Below are positions 41,051 to 61,282 of a DNA stretch of 64,000 nt, piece after piece. The stretch covers positions 20,004 through 84,003 of IMG/VR virus record IMGVR_UViG_3300038974_000542. One strand, 5' to 3'. The notes under the pieces are model-generated. The model had not been told where the DNA came from and made no database searches. It saw only the letters and a list, made by a program, of their open reading frames with translations. The number at the start of each line of letters is the position of its first letter. The stretch's first letter is position 1. The translations under genes were made by a program, and so were the position numbers. Source of the DNA: a virus. Its lineage: Duplodnaviria > Caudoviricetes.

Positions 41051-41713
41051 CTATAAAATAGTATTCTTAAAAAAGTCAATAAAAGATTTCTTATCTTCTA
41101 CTGTTTCCAAATTTAATGAACTTTCAAACTCATTTCCATACACCACTTTTTCAATACTTTCTGAACTCATAATGGATAACTCACAACCACTATCCAAATA
41201 ATCATCGAGAAAGGTTTCTTTGACCTTTTTATATACCTTCTTATAAGATTTTAATTCTGTAGAGATATATATTTTTTTATCTCTAATTGAGAGAGTATCA
41301 AAACTAACTCTCCCCAACTCTACTACTGTCTTCAGAAAAGCTTCAGAACTTATTGCTGTTAGAAATAGTATTTTACCCCTTTCATCTAAAATAGTTCCAA
41401 AAGCTGCATATATTGTTTTTTCAACTTTATCTTCCTTGAAACTTATTTTTCCAAAATAACGAAAACCTGTAAGAAAATTTACAAGTTGAGTAAAATACAC
41501 ATGATAACTAATATATAGACTATTATCTCTACTAAATAGACTTATCTTTGGATAGGCATACTTATAATCCTCTAAATAAATTGTATTATGAAGTAAAGCT
41601 AAAGGTATATATTTATTATAAGAAACAGTTGATAAACTATAGTTATCTACGGAAGTGAGACTACTACCAGGATCTCTGAAGAGTTTTTCTATAGGTTTCT
41701 CATATCTACTCAT
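41051..41713 (-). CDS. Hypothetical protein directly downstream of the E1/ThiF gene
   Basis: 220-aa ORF whose ATG overlaps the ThiF exon 2 stop. Confidence 0.6.
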   Translation of the reverse strand: MSRYEKPIEKLFRDPGSSLTSVDNYSLSTVSYNKYIPLALLHNTIYLEDYKYAYPKISLFSRDNSLYISYHVYFTQLVNFLTGFRYFGKISFKEDKVEKTIYAAFGTILDERGKILFLTAISSEAFLKTVVELGRVSFDTLSIRDKKIYISTELKSYKKVYKKVKETFLDDYLDSGCELSIMSSESIEKVVYGNEFESSLNLETVEDKKSFIDFFKNTIL

Positions 41714-41973
41714 CTTGAAATCAAATTAAGTGGTGTAAAGACTTCGAATTTAAAAGGTACATCTCTTACATATTCCTTATATCGAATATTAGTAACATGA
41801 TTAGTAAACATGACAGTCATAAATGAGGCTATCATAGCTGCTACATGAGATGTTTGTTTCATTGTACAGGCAACATCTTCTACCTCAGAATCATCAAATA
41901 AATATTTCTCTTCATATTCTTTAATTCTTTCTTTAGTAACACAAAATATTTGAAGCTGTTCGGATTCCAATCT
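41710..41973 (-). CDS. E1/ThiF-like adenylating enzyme, exon 2
   Basis: Begins AGA TTG GAA (RLESEQLQIF) after the intron terminal G; carries candidate catalytic Cys in VACTMKQ (41866-41868); 88 codons, in frame with exon 1. Confidence 0.75.
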   Translation of the reverse strand, partial: RLESEQLQIFCVTKERIKEYEEKYLFDDSEVEDVACTMKQTSHVAAMIASFMTVMFTNHVTNIRYKEYVRDVPFKFEVFTPLNLISR

Positions 41974-42163
41974 CACATTACCCACTACTTTCATAATGGT
42001 GTGGACTATATCTTTATCCAATTACTTGGATAGAGGACACTTTTTCACTTATATACTACTATAAGTTACTTCCTGTTATTAAGCAAACTTTATTGCTCAG
42101 GTAGTCTCTGAACCTTCATAAGGTGTACCTTATGCTTGGCTGCTGATTAGCATAGATTTCTCC

Positions 42164-42979
42164 TTAGCTTTCCAGCAATTCATCCTCTTCAGACAAAGTA
42201 TTACTACTTTGAGGGGCAGTTTTAAGTGTAAAATTATTTTTACAGTCTTTGCATAATACTCTAGGTAATTTAATACCTTTGTAAATATAATTACCATTGA
42301 ATACTGTATTACTTGAATTACAAAACTTACAATTTGGGGTTACTCTTTGAATAAATAAATTAGAGTCTAATATCTTCTCAAATAAAATTCTCTTTCTTAA
42401 TAAATATATTTCACAATCTTGATAAAGAAGATTATAAAATCTTTTATAACTAAGACTGAATATAGTTAATTTATAAACAGATTTTGCATCTGTAATACTA
42501 CAATCTATATTATTATCATTAAGAAAATCTCTTATCTCTTTAATAAAGATCAAAGAATTAGAGTAAATATAAACTCTCTTTTGCTCTTTTCTTGAATTAT
42601 TGATATAAGTACAACCCCCATCACCATCAAAAAAACCTCTAATAAAATGTCTTGTTAATTCATTTTTAAAAGGTATATGAAGGTTAGTTTTATTTTCAAA
42701 AGATTTATCTGGAAGACAACCATTAGATATAAAATGTTCTTTTAAAACTTTTAATCCAGAATATAAATAATGCATATTTTGTCTATTCCCAATATATTCT
42801 ACTATATAATATCTAAAGAAAGGAAATTTTTCTTTTAATAATAGAATTAAATCTTCATCTGTTAAACCTAATCTTATATGATGTTGATTCTTACTTATAT
42901 TCCCATCTGCATAAAATAATCCTAACAAATAAGCTTTGTTCTGATTATCGATACTTTGTAATTCATTATTATAATCCAT
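42164..42979 (-). CDS. Double-motif LAGLIDADG homing endonuclease with C-terminal Zn ribbon
   Basis: Motifs LLGLFYADG and FIRGFFDGDG; C-terminal CKFC...CKDC; lies inside the intron. Confidence 0.9.
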   Translation of the reverse strand: MDYNNELQSIDNQNKAYLLGLFYADGNISKNQHHIRLGLTDEDLILLLKEKFPFFRYYIVEYIGNRQNMHYLYSGLKVLKEHFISNGCLPDKSFENKTNLHIPFKNELTRHFIRGFFDGDGGCTYINNSRKEQKRVYIYSNSLIFIKEIRDFLNDNNIDCSITDAKSVYKLTIFSLSYKRFYNLLYQDCEIYLLRKRILFEKILDSNLFIQRVTPNCKFCNSSNTVFNGNYIYKGIKLPRVLCKDCKNNFTLKTAPQSSNTLSEEDELLES

Positions 42980-42996
42980 ATCCTTGTATTTTTGTA

Positions 42997-43004
42997 CAAA
43001 GATA
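42997..43004 (-). promoter_or_regulatory. Intron-internal Bacteroidota -7 element (TATCTTTG) upstream of the endonuclease
   Basis: TAnnTTTG match 17 nt before the LAGLIDADG ATG. Confidence 0.5.
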
Positions 43005-43026
43005 GTAAAAATTATTTTACTAACCT

Positions 43027-43647
43027 ACCATCAATAAATATAGGAACATTCTTTATAGTACTATTTTCATTACTTAACTCACAATCCTGAACATTTCTCT
43101 TCCAGACATTAAAGAAATTTTTTCTTGCTTCCATATTGTCAAAAGCTGAGAAGAAGTATGGTCCTAATATTTTTGTATTGGAATCAATTCTTTTAGTAAT
43201 AGTATAAATAGTAGAGCTTGGAGAAAACTCTTTTACATTATGATAAACAGCAGTTGTTTTATACTCCCCTATATTAGAATTTTTAAAAAATTGACCAGAC
43301 AAGTTTACCTTTTCAACCATATCAAAATCATAAATGCTAATAGTAAAACCAGCTCTTGCAAGAAATAAAGCTAAGTAACTACCAATTCCACCAGCACCAC
43401 CTATAATTAATGAATTATCAATAAAATCAAACCAGGGGAGACCTTTAAATCTAGTAAACTGTTCATCATTATTACTTGGTTCAAAGTCATCCTCTATAAT
43501 ACTATTTTCTTCATCTTCTACTAAGGGTTCTTGAACTGTCTCATTGTTTTCTTCTTCAGTTTCTGGTTCTTCTACAGAAGAACTCCTTAGACTTTCACCA
43601 AAGATTTCTTCAAACTCTCTTTCCAAATTATCAATTTCTCCACTCAT
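43027..43647 (-). CDS. E1/ThiF-like adenylating enzyme, exon 1
   Basis: Motifs GAGGIGS, DFDMVEKVNLSGQ, DNMEARK, IDG; 207 codons up to the predicted 5' splice site. Confidence 0.85.
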
Positions 43648-44785
43648 TTTCTATTCCTATTAAAAAGTTAATAATATCCCCTAAGAATCCAAATTGTTTT
43701 CTATATTCTTGAAGCTTTTTCCTCATAATCTTTACTATAACAAAATCATCCATTGCAATACTTCTGAAATAAGTATCAAATTCATTTTGAAAATTAACAA
43801 TAAAATCCTCAAGGATCTCTGGAGGAGTGAACTCTCCACTTACAATAGATTCATCAATAGAACTAAGCACATCTTCTAGAGATAACTCAAAGAAATCATC
43901 ATAGTCAAAACAAACTTTAATGAAGTCCTCACAGTTACTCTCAACAAATATTGAGAAATCTTCCTCAGATGTTTTACTTTTTGGCTTTTTTTTATTCTCT
44001 ACTATAGGAAGAACTCTTGATTTGTTCTGTAAAGAAGTAACAGGATTATTATAGCTTCTCCAATTATTCTCCCAATCTCCAAAAGGATATTCAAATCCCT
44101 CCTCTTTATCCTTTTGATATGAAGTACTTTTAGTCTTAGGATATAATCTCTTATCCTCTAAAATAGTACTTACATTATCAAGGAATTCTTTATCCTGATA
44201 AACTTGTGGTGTATCATATATCATTTCACATTCATAATGATACAGCTTATCTTTTTTAATCTTAAGATTTCTTGAGTCTACTATATAAGGATCTCCATTC
44301 TCATCTAAACCATTAAAGTCTGCTTTTATAGTAGCTTCTACAGAAGAATTAATAGCAATTCTACCTATAATGTCTAATCTATTATTTACAACTACAGATA
44401 AATAATAGTTATGAGCTTTAGAATTTATAGATAACTCTTCATTATCTACACCTGAAAAGAACACTCCCATATTATTATGAGAATGAATTAGCCCAGATCT
44501 CCATTCAAGTCTTTCTTCATTGTTCATAAGAAAGTCTACATATCTTTTATCATAAGTAAATTCTGTAGATCCAGCAGTTCCTCTATCCATAGGAAGAATA
44601 TCTTTTAAATTTATACTAAATCCAGAAGGTTCTTTTATAGTACCTTCAACAGTATAAAACAGTACGCCTGACCATTCCAAATTAGGAATTACCGTACACA
44701 GATATTTTATTTTATTAATTACACTCTCAGGAATATTTACTTTTATTTTACTGAGTAATTGTGTAGAATCTGATACATTGTTCAT
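43631..44785 (-). CDS. JAB/MPN+ metallopeptidase (DUB-like)
   Basis: Motifs EWSGVLFY and IHSHNNMGVFFSGVD (HxH..S..D). Confidence 0.85.
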   Translation of the reverse strand: MNNVSDSTQLLSKIKVNIPESVINKIKYLCTVIPNLEWSGVLFYTVEGTIKEPSGFSINLKDILPMDRGTAGSTEFTYDKRYVDFLMNNEERLEWRSGLIHSHNNMGVFFSGVDNEELSINSKAHNYYLSVVVNNRLDIIGRIAINSSVEATIKADFNGLDENGDPYIVDSRNLKIKKDKLYHYECEMIYDTPQVYQDKEFLDNVSTILEDKRLYPKTKSTSYQKDKEEGFEYPFGDWENNWRSYNNPVTSLQNKSRVLPIVENKKKPKSKTSEEDFSIFVESNCEDFIKVCFDYDDFFELSLEDVLSSIDESIVSGEFTPPEILEDFIVNFQNEFDTYFRSIAMDDFVIVKIMRKKLQEYRKQFGFLGDIINFLIGIENEWRN

Positions 44786-45863
44786 ATAAAAAAATATTAA
44801 TTCTATTTATTAAACCTCGATAAGTTGTTGGATGAATCATAAATGAAGAAGACATTCCTTCTTCTTCCTTTTCTTTTTTTACATAGTTATTGTATATTTT
44901 AAAAGGTATCTCTGTATTTTTGAAACTAAATTTATAGTCTACTGGAACTATGACCTCACTATCATTTTTAAAGACTTTAAAAAAATCATTCCCTACTCTT
45001 GAACAAAAAAGTTCTGGACACCTTTCCTTTACTACTTTGTATAAGGTTTTATAAAAAAAGTCATTTTCTATTACTCTTACTTTACTATCAAGCATGTCAA
45101 AATCAAAAGTTTTGAACACATTCTCTTGTAGTAGGTAAACAAATATTAGCTCAGCGTCATTTTCTTTTCTTCTAAAAAGGTTACGATCATCTGAGGCAGC
45201 ATATTGAGAGATATTACTGATTCTAAAATAAGGACCTCCTTCAATACTTTCCCAACATACAAAGGATTTAAGAGTTAAGAGAAGAAGTTCAAAAATTTCT
45301 ATATCATGATTATCATTATATAGACAGATAAGTTCGGGTATTTCATTTACTCCTAAACAAAAATCTCCTGCTCTTACATCTATTGAGTTATCCTCTCTTA
45401 TAGTAAAGTATTCACTATAATTTTCTCCCACTGAATGTAAGTGAGAGTGTAAATAACCTGAAATATACTCTTCTCTTGTAACAGTTAGTCTAAATCCTCC
45501 TATAGTACTATGAATATACAAAGAATTATTGACAATTTTCATTGAAAGTCTTACTACTAAATTCCTAATAGTATGATGTCTGTCCTCACTATTAGTAATA
45601 TCTATTTCAGGAAAAAGAATAAGTATAGAAGGAAGAGAGTACATATTCCTAAATTGAAATGCCCAATTCTCCCCATAAACTCCTTCCAAAACTTCAACAA
45701 ATGATTCTATAGTATCCGCAAGTTTTTTTATTTTCTCTTCTGTTCTTTCCATACCTCCTAAGAAATACCCTTTCTCCATATATCTATGAAACCATCCTTT
45801 TCTTTTGTACAATACATCTCTATTTATCATAGAGATAACTTTCTCTTCATTATTACTTCTCAT
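44748..45863 (-). CDS. Prokaryotic E2-like (UBC-fold) protein
   Basis: YLHSHL followed by GDFCLG (Cys at 45357-45359), the Prok-E2 pattern; lies between the Ubl and JAB genes. Confidence 0.6.
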   Translation of the reverse strand: MRSNNEEKVISMINRDVLYKRKGWFHRYMEKGYFLGGMERTEEKIKKLADTIESFVEVLEGVYGENWAFQFRNMYSLPSILILFPEIDITNSEDRHHTIRNLVVRLSMKIVNNSLYIHSTIGGFRLTVTREEYISGYLHSHLHSVGENYSEYFTIREDNSIDVRAGDFCLGVNEIPELICLYNDNHDIEIFELLLLTLKSFVCWESIEGGPYFRISNISQYAASDDRNLFRRKENDAELIFVYLLQENVFKTFDFDMLDSKVRVIENDFFYKTLYKVVKERCPELFCSRVGNDFFKVFKNDSEVIVPVDYKFSFKNTEIPFKIYNNYVKKEKEEEGMSSSFMIHPTTYRGLINRINIFLYEQCIRFYTITQ

Positions 45864-45912
45864 AATAAAAAAATAAAATAAATCCCCCTCTATAAACAGA
45901 GGGGGATTTTAT
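45864..45912 (-). terminator. Intrinsic terminator after the Ubl gene
   Basis: 11-bp stem AATCCCCCTCT/AGAGGGGGATT with a 6-nt loop, followed on the - strand by a U-rich tract. Confidence 0.8.
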
Positions 45913-45917
45913 TACTA

Positions 45918-46445
45918 TCAATCAATATCACCAAAGATTTCTTGAGCTTCCTCTTCTAAAGCTTCTATATCATCTTCTTCGTCTTTAAAAGAGAGACTTA
46001 CAACGATATCTTTGTAACCATGCTCTTCTAACCAAGAGGAAAATCTATTTTTAAGATCTTCCAATATGTAGACTTTTGAAAAATTCTTAAATCCATCAAC
46101 AGCTTCATTCAGTGTTTCTGTACTTAAATTTGTATAGTTTTTACCATATACAGACTTAATATAGCTCTGTAGCTTTATATCCTTTGATATAATACCTCTT
46201 ACTTCTTTATATGAATAGGAAGTTCCAGATTTTGTTTTGATAGGTCTCAGAAATAGAGTAAAGTCTTGCTCAGGAAGAATGGCAGAATCAACAGTTAAAT
46301 CTGTCCTTCTGATATTCTCAGTAGCTTGTAATGACGCAAAGTCATACTTATTACTTAGTTCTTGTTTTAACTCTCCCCAAGTTCTGGCTTGAGTTTCATG
46401 GGTTGCCTTTTGTGAACCCTTTGTTGAAAAAATTGTAACTTTCAT
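45918..46445 (-). CDS. Ubiquitin-like (beta-grasp) protein with C-terminal extension
   Basis: MKVTIFST...TWGELK...LP..DFTLFLRPIKTKSG matches the Prok_Ub-like pattern; Gly74 is followed by about 100 further residues. Confidence 0.65.
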   Translation of the reverse strand: MKVTIFSTKGSQKATHETQARTWGELKQELSNKYDFASLQATENIRRTDLTVDSAILPEQDFTLFLRPIKTKSGTSYSYKEVRGIISKDIKLQSYIKSVYGKNYTNLSTETLNEAVDGFKNFSKVYILEDLKNRFSSWLEEHGYKDIVVSLSFKDEEDDIEALEEEAQEIFGDID

Positions 46446-53858: not shown

Positions 53859-55799
53859 TCAGTGAATTTCTGAATATCTTAATCCAAAATCAATGCTTAC
53901 AGTTATAGGAACATTGAGCTTTAATTCTTGATTTACTTCTTCCATAGATTGAGTAATATATTGTCTATAGAGTTCTTTATCCTCTTTTTTAAGATAAGTA
54001 GCTACTTCATCATGATACTGAAGGATCATTTTAATCCCTTTCTTTCTCATATGAAATATCCATCTATCTTCTACGTATGAGCCTGTACCCTGGTTCAAAA
54101 CCGAAAAAATATCCTTTTCAACTCTTAAAGAATACCAGAACTTACTGATAGGATTAAATAACCAAAGTTGTCCATTAGCTCTCTTGGTAATTACATTAGC
54201 AGCAACTTGTTTTACAGCTTTATTTCTTTTCCAATAAGTAGAGTGTAGATTTTTAGCAAATTCAAGACTCTTCCCAAGAGATTTTGCAATCTTTGGTGGT
54301 CCAGCTCCATATACAGCACTAAAGTTGAGAGTCTTAGCAGCATATCTTATTTCTGAAAGAGATAAAAACTCTCCCTGTTCCTCTTCTGTTTTATCTCCCT
54401 TCTTTTTTAATTCTTTATATCTTTCTACTTCTTCTTTTGACATAAGCCCAGCTAATAGTGCAATATCAAGATGAGGATCAAATCCAGGAACACGCATTTG
54501 ATTTACATATTCAGGATCAAAGAAATACATATAATGCTGTTTTGTGGTATCCTCAAGAGCATGTACATCACTACCACAAATAAGATAATCTTCATTAGGG
54601 ACTTTAATAAGATCTCTAATTTCCTTTCCAAGATAAGTACCAACCTTAGGGAGATTGACTAGTGGTTTCCTATGCTGCATGCGTAAACTGTTGGTGAAGC
54701 CACCAATAGAAGCTACTGCTCTGTTTTCAGAGTCTATAGATCCTAAAAAAGATTCAAATATACCTTTTCTATGATTCATTAAAGCAAGATTCTCAAGATT
54801 CTCAAGATAAGGATAATCCTTATACATTGCTCTTATATTGCTACATATGTTTCCATCATCATCTGTAATCTGTGGTATATCAGAAACCTTCCCTGTAGTC
54901 TTACTCTTAACTTCTTTGTATATCGTAGGTTTCCAACCAAGAGAAAATAACCAGTCTTTGACTTGCTGTATAGAATTAGGATTTCCCCTTTCAATTTTCT
55001 CAAGCATTTTAAAACTCTGAATTTCTGAATTTAGATTATATTCTCTCATATACTGTAGCCACTTTTCTCCAGCTGCTGAAAGAGTCCCATCTTTTTTATA
55101 AAACTTCTCAGGTTTAGTGATAGTCTTATAAAATTTCTGTACTGGCATATGTTCAGATAACTCTGTAATCTTTTTCTCTATTTCTTCTTCAAGGTCCTTA
55201 AGAGTTTTTTCACAGAGTTCTCTATCTATATAACAAGGGTTTTCTTCTTGTTCTCTTGCACAGTCTAATTTAAAATTGAGGTAGTTTATAATTCTGAATA
55301 TCTGAGAATTCTCGCTCCCATATAGATTAACTAAGAATTCCATTTCATCTTTCCAAAGAAGACTATTTATAAGTACGTCAGTCTCACATCTATTAATGTA
55401 GTCTTTTATGTCCAAGTTCTTCCAGTCATTTATGACAGGTTTAGGTACATTATAATATTCCCCCCAAGATTCAAGGCCATGTTTCTTTCTAGGAACAAGG
55501 ATTTTATTCTTAATCTCAGTTGAATACAAATACCAAGAAAGACCAAGAGTATCAATAAGAAGCTTGTTTATTTCAATATTGAGTATCTTTTTTAACACAG
55601 GTATGTCATATCTGATAATATTATGACCTACTAGACATTGAGGTTCAGAAATAAAATTTTCTATCTCCTTATAATCTGTGATAGAACCTTTATTTACTAA
55701 CTGAAAATCTGAAGTAAAGTTTCTATAAGATAGACAATGTATTTTTGTAGCATCTTTTATTAAACCATCTGCTTCAATATCTAATACAGTATATATCAT
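53859..55799 (-). CDS. polA: Family A DNA polymerase with 3'-5' exonuclease (T7-like architecture)
   Basis: ExoI DIEADG, HNIIRYD; motif A GSDVHALE; motif B RYAAKTLNFSAVYG; motif C YHDE. Confidence 0.95.
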   Translation of the reverse strand: MIYTVLDIEADGLIKDATKIHCLSYRNFTSDFQLVNKGSITDYKEIENFISEPQCLVGHNIIRYDIPVLKKILNIEINKLLIDTLGLSWYLYSTEIKNKILVPRKKHGLESWGEYYNVPKPVINDWKNLDIKDYINRCETDVLINSLLWKDEMEFLVNLYGSENSQIFRIINYLNFKLDCAREQEENPCYIDRELCEKTLKDLEEEIEKKITELSEHMPVQKFYKTITKPEKFYKKDGTLSAAGEKWLQYMREYNLNSEIQSFKMLEKIERGNPNSIQQVKDWLFSLGWKPTIYKEVKSKTTGKVSDIPQITDDDGNICSNIRAMYKDYPYLENLENLALMNHRKGIFESFLGSIDSENRAVASIGGFTNSLRMQHRKPLVNLPKVGTYLGKEIRDLIKVPNEDYLICGSDVHALEDTTKQHYMYFFDPEYVNQMRVPGFDPHLDIALLAGLMSKEEVERYKELKKKGDKTEEEQGEFLSLSEIRYAAKTLNFSAVYGAGPPKIAKSLGKSLEFAKNLHSTYWKRNKAVKQVAANVITKRANGQLWLFNPISKFWYSLRVEKDIFSVLNQGTGSYVEDRWIFHMRKKGIKMILQYHDEVATYLKKEDKELYRQYITQSMEEVNQELKLNVPITVSIDFGLRYSEIH

Positions 55800-56088: not shown

Positions 56089-57399
56089 TTATACCTTATA
56101 TAAAATTACTAATTCTTTTGCTCTTGTAATAGCCGTATAAAGAAGTTTGTTGTATTCATTGATATCTTTATTATATGATAAGTCTCTCATATTAATAATA
56201 ACTTGATTATAACTACTTCCTTGACTTTTGTGTACCGTAATAGCATGATTATATTTAATATCAGCATATCCTTCCATAAAATTATAAAAATCTTTCCATC
56301 TTAAAAGTCCTGCTTTAGCTTTCGAAGATAAATCCTTACATATTTCTTTGAAAAGTTTTTCCGAGTCTTCATGTATAATAGGAATTTCTCTATTAACTAT
56401 ATACATTTTTAATTTCTCGTATCTTTCAAGAAATTCTGGTTGGTCTATATTTTCAGCATTATGCTCAGGATTAATAATTTTATAGATACATAAATTTCTC
56501 TCTACTACTTCAAGAGTTATAACAGTAATTTCTTCATTAGTAAAAAACTTATCATAGGGGGTATTAAAAATTAATGACTCTCCTATTTCTACCTTTTTTG
56601 GGTTTCCATAGATTCTTCTTCTTACTTGAGAATTTATGTAATCTACCTCTTTGTTAGTCCATGCTAAGTATTTTAAATCATCTGTACCATTTATAGCAGC
56701 TAATGTTTCTATTACTTTGTCAGTATCATTAGAAAATATATATCCACCAATATTTTTTCTATTATCTTTTCTACTTTTTATAAGAGAAAAGTCTCTACTA
56801 AGATCTATAATAGGATTTCCTTCTCCTTGTCTGATAATTTCTGTAAGTTCAACTTTAGGATAACCAGCAGTAAATACAGGTGAGACTGGTTCACCAACTG
56901 GGGGTAGTTGAGCCTCATCTCCAATGAAAATTACTTTAATTTTTTCAGAATACTCCTCAATATATTTCAAAAGTTCAGTATTTAACATTGAAGCTTCATC
57001 AACTATAAGTATATTTACTCCTTGTAAAGGTTTTTCTCCATACTTGTCAGGTTTAAACTCCACTGTACCATTTCTCTCATTTATATATCTCTGAAGTCTT
57101 AAGGCAGAATGTGTAGTCTTAAAATCATTATATTTTCCAAATTCTTCTCCTATCTTTTCTTTTAAAACTTTCACAGCTTTATTTGTAGGTGCTGAACACA
57201 CTGATTTTAAATCAGAAGAATATCTTCTTTTATCCTCTCTTTCTTTTCTTTTAAGCTCTCTTAGAAGAAATTTCATCAATGTTGACTTTCCTGTTCCTGC
57301 CTTCCCCGTAATCAAAAGTCTATTACTTCTTGAAAGGACATCAAGACTTTGGTATAAAATTTCAGACTGGTGCTCAGTTAGTACTATTTCATTCATCAT
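56089..57399 (-). CDS. dda: Dda/RecD-like SF1B helicase
   Basis: Motifs GKAGTGKS, APTNKA, VDEASM, GDEAQLPPV, IIRQ, TVHKSQGS, YTAITRA. Confidence 0.85.
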   Translation of the reverse strand: MMNEIVLTEHQSEILYQSLDVLSRSNRLLITGKAGTGKSTLMKFLLRELKRKEREDKRRYSSDLKSVCSAPTNKAVKVLKEKIGEEFGKYNDFKTTHSALRLQRYINERNGTVEFKPDKYGEKPLQGVNILIVDEASMLNTELLKYIEEYSEKIKVIFIGDEAQLPPVGEPVSPVFTAGYPKVELTEIIRQGEGNPIIDLSRDFSLIKSRKDNRKNIGGYIFSNDTDKVIETLAAINGTDDLKYLAWTNKEVDYINSQVRRRIYGNPKKVEIGESLIFNTPYDKFFTNEEITVITLEVVERNLCIYKIINPEHNAENIDQPEFLERYEKLKMYIVNREIPIIHEDSEKLFKEICKDLSSKAKAGLLRWKDFYNFMEGYADIKYNHAITVHKSQGSSYNQVIINMRDLSYNKDINEYNKLLYTAITRAKELVILYKV

Positions 57400-57701
57400 T
57401 TCATTTCAGTAAGTTCATTAAAATGCTTTTTACACAAGTTTCCAAATATAGGATGATGATAATACATTTTGTTATTACAATCTCCTATTTCACATCTTTC
57501 AATAGCATTAAAGCCAAGTTTAATACTATTCTCTTTAGAGTGTTCATTAGTTAATGAGATTAATCTATTAATTTCATTAATCATATTAACTTCTTCTTCA
57601 GTAAGAACACTAGGATCTGGTTTTATTATTATACCTTTAACTCTCCATAAGATTTTACTTCTAATTAACCATTTGTTCTGTTTATCAGATAACTGTTTCA
57701 T
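57396..57701 (-). CDS. Hypothetical protein with C-terminal Cys/His cluster
   Basis: Motif CEIGDC...LCKKH. Confidence 0.55.
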   Translation of the reverse strand: MKQLSDKQNKWLIRSKILWRVKGIIIKPDPSVLTEEEVNMINEINRLISLTNEHSKENSIKLGFNAIERCEIGDCNNKMYYHHPIFGNLCKKHFNELTEMK

Positions 57702-57733
57702 AATATATTTATTTAATTATTAGTATCAATAAA

Positions 57734-57801
57734 AAGCTGTATAGATAGTAGTGCTCTACATTACAATCCTCGATAACCCATTAGGAAAAACTATACAGCT
57801 T
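57734..57801 (-). repeat. Long-range hairpin (11-bp perfect stem) upstream of the 57701 gene
   Basis: AAGCTGTATAG at 57734-57744 and CTATACAGCTT at 57791-57801. Confidence 0.6.
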
Positions 57802-58038
57802 AAAATATGAGAGGAATAGTCTTCTCACCTCTCTATGAGCATACCCACGGGCCTATATGTGTGTTCTTTGATACTTTTTTAGCCATCATATTAAGTATCT
57901 TTTGACTATCCTGGAATTTTACATCCTTTGTTAAGTACTATTATCTATATCTACTTTATCAACCCTAAGGAAATCCTTAGCACAACAATTCTTTGTTTAT
58001 AACTTTTATATTTTTTTTGTTTTTAGAATTATAATTTG

Positions 58039-58160
58039 TTAGGGACACGGGAATCGAACCCGTACCACATCAACCAAATTGAAGTAACTCTTACTATCAC
58101 TACAATATCTGAGAACAGGCATAAGAGCTAATATGTGTACTTCCGTTACACTAGTCCCTA
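58039..58160 (-). ncRNA. tRNA-like RNA with a Y-RNA-like module in the anticodon arm
   Basis: Acceptor TAGGGAC/GTCCCTA, D arm GTGT-AACGGAAGT-ACAC, T arm ACGGG-TTCGATT-CCCGT. The anticodon loop is replaced by about 54 nt containing both halves of the neighbouring repeat motif. Confidence 0.75.
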
Positions 58161-58163
58161 AAG

Positions 58164-58246
58164 AATAGGAAGAACATTATAAACAGTTTGTTTATCGAGA
58201 TAATTTACACATTTATTGATGAAACTGTTTAATACACTATCCTATT
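58164..58246 (-). ncRNA. Y-RNA-like hairpin unit 3
   Basis: Outer stem AATAGGA/TCCTATT; TAGTG...AAACAGTTTCATCA and AAACTGTTT...TGTTCT. Confidence 0.6.
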
Positions 58247-58254
58247 AAAAGTAT

Positions 58255-58331
58255 ACTTCCAAGAACACTAGAAATGGTATTTTAGTTTAGTAAAGATAAA
58301 TTGATGCAACCACTTCATACACTATGGAAGT
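58255..58331 (-). ncRNA. Y-RNA-like hairpin unit 2
   Basis: Outer stem ACTTCCA/TGGAAGT; TAGTG...GAAGTGGTTGCATCA and ACCATTTC...TGTTCT. Confidence 0.6.
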
Positions 58332-58388
58332 TAAGAATGACTCGAAGGCAGATCTTATGGTATGCACAACGAGTACTGTTGAAATTTT

Positions 58389-58464
58389 CTTCTAAGAACA
58401 ATTATAAGAGTTTCTATAAACCAGTTACTAAATAGTGAAGTAACTCTTATTATCACTATAGAAG
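58389..58464 (-). ncRNA. Y-RNA-like hairpin unit 1
   Basis: Outer stem CTTCTA/TAGAAG; TAGTGATAATAAGAGTTACTTCA and GAAACTCTTAT...TGTTCT; starts 12 nt after the Ro60 stop. Confidence 0.6.
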
Positions 58465-58476
58465 TAAAATTATTTC

Positions 58477-59874
58477 TTATTCTGATTGAAAAGTATTTTC
58501 TATACCTTCATAAGCTGCTATAAAAGTAAGAAAATGCTCTGACCATCCAGAAATTTCTGCTGTCCAAACACCTTTATAGTTTATACCTTTCGTATGTGCC
58601 GAAATATCACAAATATAATTATATTTACCAAAAGGTTTTGGGATATTTTTAGATGGAAGATCACAATCTTGTGAATCAGAAAAGATGATAATTCTATCAA
58701 AATCTGTTCCAAGAGTTTCTTTACACCATTCTAAGCATTGTCTAGTAAAAATCCCACCATATCCAAGATTACCTTGAGTAATTTGATCAAATACACCAAA
58801 TCCTTTCTTAGGATATTTAATTAAAGCATGTTTTCCTCGATAATCACTATCACTTCCAGCTGTGATGACCAGTTCATAATTCTCACATTGATTAATAGCT
58901 AGCATAGCCATAGCACAAGCTAAACTTAGCCTTGAAAAGTTAGAGCTTTCTGAAACTAAACTTTTCATACTTCCAGAAACATCTACAATAAAAAGAGTTT
59001 TTCCTGGAAGTTTAGGTAATTTAGAATAAGACGCAAGCATAGCATCTTCTATCTCTCTTGAAAATTCAAGATTAGTTATTGCTGCTTTTAAGAAATCAAG
59101 TGGTAAAAGCATAGAAGATTTTAGAGTAGATAGACCTTGATCTATTACCTTTTTATCCACCCCTGCTTCCTGCATATTTCTTAAATTTCTGAGCATAGCT
59201 AATCCACCAATTTTACCTTCTAAGATTAATCTTGTCCAAGTCTCTTTTTTATCTTTACCAGTAGACAAAGCAACTTCCCAAGTATCAGGAGTAGCTAATG
59301 TTCTATTGGCTACTCTTTTAAATAACTCCTCTTTTCCTTGTTCAGGTTTAGGATGAGTTAGAAACATTACATCCCTAAGTTTAATAGCAGCATTTCTATC
59401 ATACTTAGCGAATTGATACTCATTAAAATTATTAAAAGAAGCTGCTAAACCTTTCTTAAGTTGTGCAGATAGTTTCTTTTTACCATCTTTCCAATAGATA
59501 GCTAACATATCTGTAATCATATCAGCTCTTGTAATAATTTTAGGAAGGACTTTACTTACATATTTGGAGTGGTCTTTATACTTACACATCTCACTTACTA
59601 TAAGTAAAGGGGTATGTCTAAGTTTTTGAAATGTTCTAGCTTCAACAGCTAAATCAGCCACATCTTTAGGATCACAAAGAGGAATTAGTCTTTTAATTTC
59701 TTCAGATACTGATTCCCCATCCATGTAAGCAATATCTTCCCATAGAAGATTTGCTAAAACTGCTCTTCTAAGATGAGCAATATTAGATTGTTTAGCTGCA
59801 AGGTTTCCCTTGCCACCAGCCAATCTTTCCTCCTCAAACTTAGAGGTTTTAATTAGCGGATTAATTTTACTCAT
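58477..59874 (-). CDS. rsr: Ro60/Rsr-like TROVE-vWA RNA-binding protein
   Basis: TROVE motifs FAKYDR, TPDTWEV, GGLAMLRNLRN, and vWA MIDAS VDVSGSM plus IIIFSDSQ. Confidence 0.85.
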   Translation of the reverse strand: MSKINPLIKTSKFEEERLAGGKGNLAAKQSNIAHLRRAVLANLLWEDIAYMDGESVSEEIKRLIPLCDPKDVADLAVEARTFQKLRHTPLLIVSEMCKYKDHSKYVSKVLPKIITRADMITDMLAIYWKDGKKKLSAQLKKGLAASFNNFNEYQFAKYDRNAAIKLRDVMFLTHPKPEQGKEELFKRVANRTLATPDTWEVALSTGKDKKETWTRLILEGKIGGLAMLRNLRNMQEAGVDKKVIDQGLSTLKSSMLLPLDFLKAAITNLEFSREIEDAMLASYSKLPKLPGKTLFIVDVSGSMKSLVSESSNFSRLSLACAMAMLAINQCENYELVITAGSDSDYRGKHALIKYPKKGFGVFDQITQGNLGYGGIFTRQCLEWCKETLGTDFDRIIIFSDSQDCDLPSKNIPKPFGKYNYICDISAHTKGINYKGVWTAEISGWSEHFLTFIAAYEGIENTFQSE

Positions 59875-59956
59875 ATTTTTTTGATTTAAATAAGTTTAAA
59901 TATCATTGGTTATTCACTCCAGCCGCACAGTGTTACTTAAGTACATGTTTTAAGTA

Positions 59957-60160
59957 TTAATCCTCAATATTAAACCATCCTACAATACTTCCTATTCCTG
60001 TAAGGAATGAAGCTGTATATATTATTTCTCTTTTTCCAATTGGGTCCCAATCTGATTTTATTGCTTTTACTATACATTGAATTTCTCCAAGAACCATTAG
60101 CAATACTACAAACAATGTCAAATAACTTCCAAAACATCCATTATTCTTTTTCATAATCAC
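59957..60160 (-). CDS. Small membrane protein
   Basis: Two hydrophobic segments; start may be the second ATG. Confidence 0.55.
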   Translation of the reverse strand: MIMKKNNGCFGSYLTLFVVLLMVLGEIQCIVKAIKSDWDPIGKREIIYTASFLTGIGSIVGWFNIED

Positions 60161-60433: not shown

Positions 60434-60760
60434 CAACACTCATCTTTATAGCACCCTCTTGTCTTATATTATTATGCAACATCTATATTATTAAGATATT
60501 AAAGTATATAAGAGTAGGGTCTTGCTGAGAACTCATTCATACTGTGTAAAACATACAATTACAATTCAGTCCAGCCCTTAAGCTATCTTGCATCACTTTC
60601 TCAAGGTGACAGTACGTCTAGGATTACTCCAACTATTCATAAGGAATAGCTATCTTGCCAATTCAAGATTAGTATCTTCTATAGAATAAGTCTATAAGGT
60701 ATCAATGTTTAGCCTTTTATCTTTATATAAATGAGTTTCATAATTCTAACATCTTAATAG

Positions 60761-61282
60761 TGGAGCTGGAGGGATTTGAACCCTCGTCTTACATAGTTCT
60801 TAATAATAATCTCTTACATGTTTATCTTGTTTTTAAAAACAAGCAAAAAGGGTTGACTGGATAGTCAACTACCACCATCTTATTTAATCTAATAAGAAAA
60901 TCTGTGATAATCCTAACAGCACTCCTGGAGAATTACCTCGTGGACTGTTGCCTTGACTACTTATTAAATATACAGGAATAGAGCTTAAGGTTTTGCTAAT
61001 CTCTATTGTGACCTGTATTTTAATAGTAGTCCGTGATACCTTTCACATGCTTAAGGCTCAAGGATTCTGGTTTGATTATCTTAATACAATCCTTTGTTAA
61101 ATCTTCAACTATTATGTTCCATGGTTAGTTGACAACCAGATGAACTAAGCTACAGCTCTTAAAGAACTATAAGAGTTCATGGAAATAGTTTTACTATTGC
61201 CTTCTGTTGTTTTGAGTATAAGCTCTCCAGCTTACATGAATTATTATTAATACTGTATGCAATCAAATGCCATAACAGCCCC
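60761..61282 (-). ncRNA. ssrA: tmRNA (522 nt) with tag peptide (A)GNSKTISMNSYSSLRAVA
   Basis: 5' GGGGCTG pairs with 3' CAGCTCC-A including G3-U70; T arm GAGGG-TTCAAAT-CCCTC; helix 2 TTAATAATAA/TTATTATTAA; tag ORF 61201..61145 ends AVA-TAG. Confidence 0.9.

What the first reader, a model, noticed from the sequence alone, without database searches (positions are those of the whole stretch)
58039..59874. Phage Ro60 gene followed by a tandem array of four related Y-RNA-like ncRNAs
Seen: four units follow the Ro60/TROVE stop on the same strand (58389-58464, 58255-58331, 58164-58246, and one inside 58039-58160). All share a 5' half TAGTG...GTTNCWTCA and a 3' half ...TGTTCT. The inner stems differ in sequence but stay paired (ATAAGAGT/ACTCTTAT, GAAGTGGT/ACCATTTC, AAACAGTT/AACTGTTT), and the outer stems of units 1-3 are unrelated but perfect. 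This covariation points to a conserved RNA structure. Known: Ro60/Rsr binds Y RNAs through a bulged helix, and bacterial rsr loci often encode adjacent Y RNAs. Inference: a phage-encoded Ro60 ribonucleoprotein with a diversified cassette of interchangeable RNA partners.
Basis: partly seen in the sequence, partly recalled or inferred. Interest (0 to 1): 0.88.

Follow-up and report, generated by a model that had tools for sequence, protein, structure and literature searches.

The report
crAss-like phage Ro60 with Y-RNA array
A crAss-like phage from wastewater sludge encodes a Ro60-type ring protein, and right after the gene come three small hairpin RNAs and one tRNA-shaped RNA that share one conserved "handle"; this is a new, rewired variant of the Ro60/Y-RNA particles already described in bacteria and a few phages.

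Summary
A Ro60-fold TROVE+vWA gene lies at 58477-59874 (-). Its stop is followed on the same strand by U1 (58389-58464), U2 (58255-58331), U3 (58164-58246) and U4 (58040-58160).

U1-U3 share one design: variable outer stem, bulged U, UAGUG/UGUUCU internal loop, variable 8-bp inner stem, then U(A/G)C(U/A)UCA and a variable loop. U4 is different. It is a tRNA-shaped RNA with open acceptor ends, a D-like arm and a T arm. The same handle sits in the anticodon position in reversed strand order, capped by a 9-nt loop. This is YrlA circularly permuted.

Covariance models built here found 125 units in 45 of 54 TROVE loci, all on the TROVE strand. Pairing was 92.6% against about 45% in slid controls. 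In five whole phage records (579 kb) all 23 hits lie beside TROVE.

Rfam YrlA (RF02553) does not match the window, but it gives sub-threshold hits on the CcrColossus units that my model also hits.

Phage Ro60 with Y-like RNAs is already published (Chen 2014; Hu 2025). I therefore rate this a new variant of a known kind. Binding and discrete transcripts are untested. This scan has noted similar handle RNA arrays on other phage DNA.

The parts
58477..59874 (-). Ro60/Rsr-type protein gene (465 aa; TROVE HEAT-repeat ring plus vWA domain with a DVSGS MIDAS motif)
   Evidence: ORF. Pfam TROVE 3.2e-16 and weak vWA_Ro60. PHROG 850 'RNA-binding protein' 1e-30. phmmer to Thermus phage phiLo Ro60 9KOP/9L5Y, E 1.9e-20 over residues 25-457. 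AF2 model pLDDT 81.8; the top 13 Foldseek PDB hits are all Ro60 (9KOP TM 0.67, 2NVO 0.65, 1YVP 0.63).
58389..58464 (-). U1, small Y-RNA-like unit. Outer stem CUUCUA/UAGAAG, handle UAGUG...UGUUCU, inner stem AUAAGAGU/ACUCUUAU, UACUUCA, 24-nt loop.
   Evidence: R1 70.1 bits, R2 64.3 bits. Parse. Begins about 12 nt after the TROVE stop codon.
58255..58331 (-). U2, small Y-RNA-like unit. Outer stem ACUUCCA/UGGAAGU, inner stem GAAGUGGU/ACCAUUUC, UGCAUCA.
   Evidence: R1 71.5 bits, R2 62 bits. Fold z -2.24.
58164..58246 (-). U3, small Y-RNA-like unit. Outer stem AAUAGGA/UCCUAUU, inner stem AAACAGUU/AACUGUUU, UCAUCA.
   Evidence: R1 75.5 bits, R2 64.4 bits. Fold z -1.94.
58040..58160 (-). U4, tRNA-shaped Y RNA with native tRNA connectivity. 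Acceptor UAGGGAC/GUCCCUA (58154-58160 / 58040-58046), D-like arm 58135-58151, handle in the anticodon position, variable region 58064-58079, T arm 58047-58063, discriminator A at 58039, no encoded CCA.
   Evidence: Cloverleaf-like MFE -34.7 kcal/mol, z -2.0. Parse. Levitt pair A15:U48. Rfam tRNA only 17.1 bits. ARAGORN finds nothing.
58080..58128 (-). Permuted handle inside U4: GCUCUUAU-GCC-UGUUCU, 9-nt cap CAGAUAUUG, then UAGUG-AUA-GUAAGAGU-UACUUCA. The 5' half differs from U1 at 1 of 23 nt.
   Evidence: With filters off, R2 aligns only the 5' half (16.5 bits), as expected for reversed strand order.
58334..58388 (-). Spacer between U1 and U2 with no convincing structure
   Evidence: Fold z -1.67, 13 of 200 shuffles fold at least as well. 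No model hit.

Best explanation
The locus encodes a phage Ro60 ribonucleoprotein system: a Ro60-fold protein and, immediately 3' on the same strand, four partner RNAs of the bacterial/phage Y-RNA (YrlA/YrlB) kind.

Shown here:
- The protein has the Ro60 fold.
- The RNAs belong to a structured family with covarying stems around a conserved handle.
- That family occurs only next to TROVE genes and only on their strand.
- U4 carries a tRNA-like body.

Inferred:
- The array is probably co-transcribed with the Ro60 gene. The orthologous gene is an early gene in crAss001, and no terminator was predicted between the stop codon and the array.
- The precursor would be cut into separate RNAs. U2, U3 and U4 lie 1-7 nt apart, and the 7-bp acceptor of U4 would suit RNase P and 3'-end enzymes.
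- The handle (bulged U, A:U/G:C pairs, UG.../...UGU internal loop) would dock on the Ro60 ring, as the bulged helix of animal Y RNAs does.
- The variable loops (U1-U3) or the tRNA-like domain (U4) would tether Ro60 to host factors such as PNPase or tRNA-binding enzymes.
- The net effect would be to redirect or blunt host RNA decay, repair or defence early in infection.
For: Protein. Four of the eight basic residues that Hu et al. mutated in phiLo Ro60 align to basic residues here (K140, K141, R167, K176). DVSGS and THPKP are conserved.

RNA family:
- Seed MAFFT alignment of 17 units: 85% of cells paired against 42-48% in slid controls; covariation 0.751 against 0.229 in shuffles, 0 of 500 shuffles as high.
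- 125 distinct hits at E<=1e-3 in 45 of 54 TROVE loci, all on the TROVE strand.
- On those hits: 92.6% paired against about 45% slid, and 17 of 17 pairs show double changes. Handle pair 11:254 is G:C x87 and A:U x33, so UAGUG/UGUUCU switches to UGGUG/UGUUCC. G:U pairs are present, which fits RNA read from this strand.

Linkage: all 23 hits in five whole phage records (579 kb) lie beside TROVE. The own 84-kb genome has only U1-U3.

tRNA-like class: 13 native-topology units with 9 different acceptor sequences; the acceptor pairs 7/7 in 12 of them and the T arm 5/5 in all; the Levitt pair 15:48 is G:C x9 and A:U x4, after correcting L013_t for one extra U. The crAss001 homologue scores 46.6 bits with Rfam tRNA.

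Bridge to YrlA: RF02553 gives sub-threshold hits of 30-42 bits on the same CcrColossus units that R2 hits, just upstream of its TROVE gene.

Precedent: phage Ro60 binds adjacent Yrl RNAs and host PNPase (PMC12135203). YrlA occurs beside Ro60 in 254 bacteria and 22 phages (PMC4201824). The crAss001 TROVE gene is an early gene (PMC8375218).
Against: - No direct evidence of binding.
- No read-level evidence of discrete transcripts or their ends. Only metatranscriptome contigs cover the array, and DNA carry-over cannot be excluded.
- The published Ro60-binding motif (GNCGAAN0-1G / CGAA) is absent from all four units.
- The Rfam Y_RNA and YrlA models do not match the window.
- The model did not match the experimentally verified Yrl region of phiLo.
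- Nine of 54 TROVE loci had no hit within the fetched flanks.
Confidence: 0.85

Rival explanations
1. The units are tRNA-derived decoys or processing elements that act without Ro60. They might soak up host tRNA-targeting nucleases or tRNA enzymes, and their place beside TROVE would only reflect a shared early RNA-biology gene cluster.
For: - U4 and its relatives are close tRNA mimics.
- Other loci carry real tRNA genes beside the arrays, for example L031 and L045.
- The published Ro60-binding motif is absent.
Against: - U1-U3 have no tRNA features, yet they share the handle with U4.
- The handle family is found only next to TROVE genes in 579 kb of whole phage genomes. It keeps that position whether the array is upstream or downstream of the gene.
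Confidence: 0.07
2. The hairpins are cis-acting parts of the TROVE mRNA, such as 3'-UTR stabilisers, attenuators or terminators, and not separate RNAs.
For: - The array starts about 12 nt after the stop codon.
- No promoter or terminator signal separates it from the gene.
- Metatranscriptome contig 1 of run X1 spans both gene and array.
Against: - In more distant phages the same units lie upstream of TROVE, or more than 2 kb away.
- Conserved internal-loop sequences and tRNA-like domains are not expected of stabiliser hairpins.
- The terminator scan finds none in the array.
Confidence: 0.05
3. The repeats act as DNA, for example as protein-binding inverted repeats, an origin, or recombination sites.
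For: The units are tandem imperfect palindromes in an intergenic region next to replication genes (helicase, PolA).
Against: - The conserved motifs are not self-complementary (TAGTG versus TGTTCT).
- They are always on the TROVE strand, 125 of 125 hits.
- Stems tolerate G:U pairs, which would be mismatches on the other strand.
- tRNA tertiary-pair covariation is present.
Confidence: 0.02

Closest known systems
Bacterial and phage Rsr (Ro60) with YrlA/YrlB Y RNAs (Chen et al. 2014, PMC4201824; Wang et al. 2018, bioRxiv 10.1101/312249; Rfam RF02553)
   Same: - A Ro60 gene with one to several small RNAs on the same strand nearby.
- A two-helix Ro60-binding module around an internal loop.
- At least one RNA per locus with a tRNA-like D/T/acceptor domain, and a conserved UA just after the stem that takes the anticodon-stem position.
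- Small partner RNAs without a full tRNA domain, as in YrlB.
   Different: - The handle sequence is UAGUG...GUUACUUCA...UGUUCU, not GNCGAAN0-1G.
- RF02553 does not match the window.
- In YrlA the RNA ends form the Ro60-binding stem and the acceptor is a closed loop. In U4 the ends form the acceptor and the handle is capped by a loop.
- The array has four units here, and five to six in crAss001.
Thermus phage phiLo phiRo60 with Yrl1/Yrl2 (Hu et al. 2025, PMC12135203; PDB 9KOP, 9L5Y)
   Same: - Closest solved protein: E 1.9e-20 by sequence, TM 0.67 by fold.
- A phage Ro60 with adjacent small RNAs of stem-bulge-stem design.
- There the RNAs bind the protein and host PNPase in vitro.
   Different: - About 22-25% protein identity.
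- The phiLo RNAs lie upstream and carry CGAA.
- My models do not match them.
- No tRNA-like RNA is described for phiLo.
Caulobacter phage CcrColossus and Xanthomonas phage Tenjo TROVE loci
   Same: - TROVE proteins 37-39% identical to the window's.
- Arrays of 4-8 units with the same handle, in the form UGGUG...UACUUC...GUUCC, hit by R2.
- The CcrColossus units also give sub-threshold RF02553 hits.
   Different: - The arrays lie upstream of the gene.
- The tRNA-like units I read there keep the standard YrlA connectivity.
Animal Ro60 with Y RNAs (X. laevis Ro60-Y RNA structure 1YVP)
   Same: - Ring protein of the same fold (TM 0.63).
- An RNA with a stem carrying a conserved bulged helix and a variable effector loop.
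   Different: No detectable sequence or Rfam Y_RNA match. Animal Y RNAs have no tRNA-like domain.

Membership tests
Ro60/Rsr proteins (TROVE + vWA ring) | TROVE domain | tested here: met
   Pfam PF05731, 60 bits against a cut-off of 23. Own-genome family search 60.4 bits.
Ro60/Rsr proteins (TROVE + vWA ring) | C-terminal vWA domain with a MIDAS DxSxS motif | tested here: met
   DVSGS at residues 298-302 aligns to the phiRo60 DVSGS. D298, S300, G301 and S302 are invariant in 20 homologues. Pfam vWA_Ro60 scores only 16.6 bits, below its cut-off.
Ro60/Rsr proteins (TROVE + vWA ring) | Overall fold like solved Ro60 structures | tested here: met
   AF2 pLDDT 81.8. Foldseek ranks 1-13 are all Ro60: 9KOP, 9L5Y, 2NVO, 2I91, 1YVP and human Ro60.
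Ro60/Rsr proteins (TROVE + vWA ring) | Binds Y RNA or misfolded RNA | not testable with these tools
   Only 4 of the 8 basic residues mutated in phiRo60 are conserved here.
Y RNAs (Ro60 partner RNAs) | Encoded next to the Ro60 gene on the same strand | tested here: met
Y RNAs (Ro60 partner RNAs) | Helix with a conserved bulge or internal loop, supported by covariation, plus a variable effector part | tested here: met
Y RNAs (Ro60 partner RNAs) | Discrete stable small transcripts | tested here: inconclusive
   Contigs from activated-sludge RNA libraries cover the array. In run X3 the array contig has depth 10 and the only TROVE CDS piece has depth 2. Contigs cannot show ends, strand or level.
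Y RNAs (Ro60 partner RNAs) | Bound by Ro60 | not testable with these tools
   No tool here models RNA-protein binding.
YrlA (Rfam RF02553) | Match to the Rfam model at or above 69 bits | tested here: not met
   No hit at E<=1 in the own genome or in crAss001. Nothing at E<=10 in 57700-58520.
YrlA (Rfam RF02553) | tRNA-like domain with D arm, T arm, acceptor-type stem and tertiary pairs | tested here: met
   Met for U4 only. U1-U3 lack it and resemble YrlB in that respect.
YrlA (Rfam RF02553) | RNA termini form the Ro60-binding stem and the acceptor stem is a closed loop | tested here: not met
   U4 has the reverse connectivity. Standard connectivity is seen in relatives L014, L009, CcrColossus and Tenjo.
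YrlA (Rfam RF02553) | GNCGAAN0-1G / CGAA motif in the 5' strand | tested here: not met
   No CGAA occurs in U1-U4 (sequence read). UAGUG stands in the corresponding place.
tRNA (RF00005) | Model score of at least 29 bits and an anticodon loop | tested here: not met
   U4 scores 17.1 bits over part of its length. ARAGORN finds none. The anticodon arm is replaced by the handle.

The most novel reading that the evidence does not exclude
In crAss-like phages the tRNA-like Y RNA has been circularly permuted back to native tRNA connectivity. It could therefore be matured like a tRNA, with RNase P cutting at the acceptor 5' end, 3' trimming and CCA addition, and it might even be charged. That would let the phage Ro60 particle be carried to tRNA-handling machinery such as the ribosome, EF-Tu, synthetases or tRNA-targeting defence nucleases. 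The three small handle RNAs would then be alternative adaptors that compete for the same protein.
Probability: 0.2. Interest if true: 0.75.

Novelty: new variant of a known kind. Interest (0 to 1): 0.55.

Why it matters
Crassvirales are among the most abundant phages of the gut and of wastewater, and their early genes are poorly understood. crAss001 can be grown in culture. It carries the same unannotated RNA array in the 900-nt gap after its early TROVE gene gp96, so the idea can be tested directly. The rewired tRNA-like RNA gives the tRNA-mimic domain a free acceptor end, which the described YrlA lacks. The handle family extends far beyond the Rfam YrlA model and points to an uncatalogued branch of Y RNAs.

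Tried and rejected
- Rfam at gathering thresholds over the whole window finds only a tmRNA. At E<=10 over the array there are only chance-level hits and a partial tRNA match.
- ARAGORN finds no tRNA or tmRNA in the window.
- R1 and R2 find nothing in the phiLo locus, and only a weak hit (22 bits) in Gordonia phage Rabbitrun.
- The U1-U2 spacer and the 320 nt downstream of U4 fold no better than shuffles. A possible long-loop terminator near 57730-57800 was not called by the scan.
- A weak R2 hit at 59891-59978, upstream of TROVE (16.3 bits), is treated as chance.
- The sequencing runs are Logan contigs only, so they give no ends, strand or level. Parts without cover carry no weight.
- The genome-contig scan returned phage contigs binned into unrelated MAGs, not bacterial rsr loci.
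- I considered that UAGUG is a diverged form of GNCGAA(N)G. The RF02553 alignments to the CcrColossus units match only the tRNA core, not the handle, so handle homology is unproven.
- From memory, human Y1 and Y4 RNAs also contain UAGUG and UUGUUCU-like strings. The Rfam Y_RNA model gave no hit, so I dropped this lead.
- Not available: the supplements of Chen 2014, the review PMC10870794, and a 'relatives' search for a virus record.

Full report
**What is there.** On the minus strand an ORF at 58477-59874 encodes a 465-aa protein. About 12 nt after its stop codon come four structured units.

U1 (58389-58464), U2 (58255-58331) and U3 (58164-58246) share one plan:
- a 6-7-bp outer stem whose sequence differs in each unit;
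- UAGUG, a 3-4-nt linker, and an 8-bp inner stem that also differs in each unit;
- U(A/G)C(U/A)UCA and a 23-28-nt loop;
- the return strand of the inner stem, a 3-4-nt linker, UGUUCU, and the return strand of the outer stem.

U2, U3 and U4 lie 1-7 nt apart. A 52-nt spacer between U1 and U2 shows no convincing fold. The 5' motif pattern occurs four times in the window, all within the array, where 0.67 are expected.

**Unit 4 is a different object.** The stretch 58040-58160 folds as a cloverleaf. It has:
- a 7-bp acceptor UAGGGAC/GUCCCUA;
- U8-A9 and a D-like arm whose loop contains GG;
- a canonical T arm, ACGGG-UUCGAUU-CCCGU;
- discriminator A and no encoded CCA.

The anticodon arm is replaced by the handle in reversed strand order: stem strand, then UGUUCU, then a 9-nt cap, then UAGUG, then stem strand, then UACUUCA. 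The UAGUG at the 5' end of U4 is only U8-A9 plus the D-stem.

**The protein is a Ro60 homologue.**
- Pfam TROVE scores 3e-16 and PHROG 850 scores 1e-30.
- The best solved relative by sequence is Ro60 of Thermus phage phiLo, E 1.9e-20 over residues 25-457, with the MIDAS DVSGS aligned.
- An AlphaFold2 model built from 20 homologues has pLDDT 81.8. Its 13 best Foldseek PDB matches are all Ro60: phiLo, D. radiodurans Rsr, X. laevis and human.
- Four of the eight basic residues that Hu et al. mutated, and whose loss lowered RNA binding, are conserved here.

**The RNAs are a real family linked to TROVE.** The TROVE protein retrieved 38 IMG/VR loci at 39-80% identity, and later 13 contigs from MAGs.
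- A MAFFT alignment of 17 small units supports the two-helix structure. Cells are 85% paired against 42-48% when partners are slid. Covariation is 0.751 against 0.229 in shuffles, with 0 of 500 shuffles as high.
- Model R1 found 77 hits, and the broader model R2 found 125 hits at E<=1e-3 in 45 of 54 loci. Every hit is on the TROVE strand.
- On those 125 distinct sequences 92.6% of cells pair, against about 45% slid. All 17 pairs show compensatory changes.
- The handle itself covaries: UAGUG/UGUUCU in crAss-like phages becomes UGGUG/UGUUCC elsewhere, A:U x33 and G:C x87. That alignment is fitted to the model, but the independent seed alignment agrees.
- In five whole phage records totalling 579 kb, all 23 hits sit beside TROVE. 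The window's own 84-kb record has only U1-U3.
- In crAss-like phages the array follows the gene. In more distant phages, including CcrColossus and Xanthomonas phage Tenjo, arrays of 2-8 units precede it.

**The tRNA-shaped class.** Thirteen native-topology units were compared, from crAss001 and its relatives and from two distant contigs.
- There are nine different acceptor sequences. Twelve of the 13 pair 7/7, and all T arms pair 5/5.
- The tRNA tertiary Levitt pair 15:48 covaries, G:C x9 and A:U x4, once L013_t is shifted by its one extra U.
- One crAss001 unit scores 46.6 bits with the Rfam tRNA model, yet the record annotates nothing in the 900-nt gap after gp96.
- The relatives L014 and L009, and the proteobacterial phages, keep the YrlA connectivity: handle at the RNA ends and a closed acceptor. 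Both wirings therefore exist within one protein family.

**Relation to known families.**
- Chen et al. 2014 found YrlA RNAs beside Ro60 in 254 bacteria and 22 phages, with a GNCGAAN0-1G motif.
- Wang et al. 2018 stress that YrlA has a closed acceptor and no anticodon loop.
- Hu et al. 2025 showed that phiLo Ro60 binds two adjacent CGAA-bearing RNAs and host PNPase.
- Rfam YrlA (RF02553, cut-off 69 bits) gives no hit in this genome or in crAss001. It gives 30-42-bit hits on the CcrColossus units that R2 also finds. The match is carried by the tRNA core, not the handle.
- The locus therefore works like Rsr-YrlA/YrlB, but it fails the YrlA membership tests on the Rfam model score, the motif and the connectivity.
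- I found no paper linking crAss-like phages to Y RNAs. The crAss001 papers call gp96 an early 'TROVE domain protein'.

**Expression.** Contigs from activated-sludge metatranscriptomes cover the gene and the array.
- In run X1 a 2334-nt contig covers 58067-60000.
- In run X3 the array contig has depth 10, and the only piece in the TROVE CDS has depth 2.
- Contigs cannot show ends, strand or level, and DNA carry-over is possible, so this is only a weak hint.

**Mechanism and verdict.** The most likely reading (0.85) is a phage Ro60 particle with four alternative RNA partners. They would be made from one early transcript. The handle would dock on the ring, and the variable loop or tRNA-like domain would engage host factors. 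Binding, processing and function are all inferred. The kind is already known. What is new here:
- the Crassvirales setting;
- the handle sequence;
- the multi-unit array;
- the permuted YrlA with a free acceptor end.

This scan has reported similar handle RNA arrays next to Ro60-like genes on other phage DNA.

Noticed in passing
window 60758-61282 (-): A phage-encoded tmRNA of about 525 nt lies 0.9 kb upstream of the Ro60 gene (Rfam RF00023, 52.5 bits, full model). ARAGORN did not call it. With U4 it makes two tRNA mimics in 3.3 kb.
   Followed up: partly
window 57834-58066: In contigs from two activated-sludge RNA libraries, a closely related strain replaces these 233 nt with 182 other letters. 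The replaced stretch includes the T arm and 3' acceptor strand of U4 (table 5).
   Followed up: no
L043 4420-5325 (NC_049977.1 about 95964-96870): The cultured phage crAss001 has an unannotated 900-nt gap after gp96 (TROVE). It holds two small units, two tRNA-shaped units and one long-loop unit.
   Followed up: yes
L051 (CAZEMX010000008.1): A 41.6-kb contig with a 100% identical TROVE protein is filed in a MAG labelled Nitrososphaerota archaeon. Other close relatives sit in MAGs labelled Melainabacteria, Clostridia and Bacillota. These are probably phage contigs placed in the wrong bins.
   Followed up: no
window 41710-46445: Earlier notes of this scan place a Ubl/E2-like/JAB/E1 set 12 kb from the Ro60 locus. 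Other notes report Ro60-like RNA arrays joined to ubiquitin-like modules elsewhere. The two are not adjacent here, and I did not examine the link.
   Followed up: no
control genomes: Bacteroides thetaiotaomicron has a TROVE-domain gene, so the probable host phylum has its own Ro60.
   Followed up: no
L040 2122-2189 (CcrColossus): A tRNA-Gln annotated in the record lies inside the Y-RNA array upstream of TROVE, within an R2 hit at 2115-2285. Real tRNAs and handle units may be interleaved or fused there.
   Followed up: no
window 56089-57399 (-) and 53859-55799 (-): An SF1 helicase (AAA_30 / UvrD_C_2) and a family A DNA polymerase follow the array after a 101-aa ORF of unknown family.
   Followed up: partly
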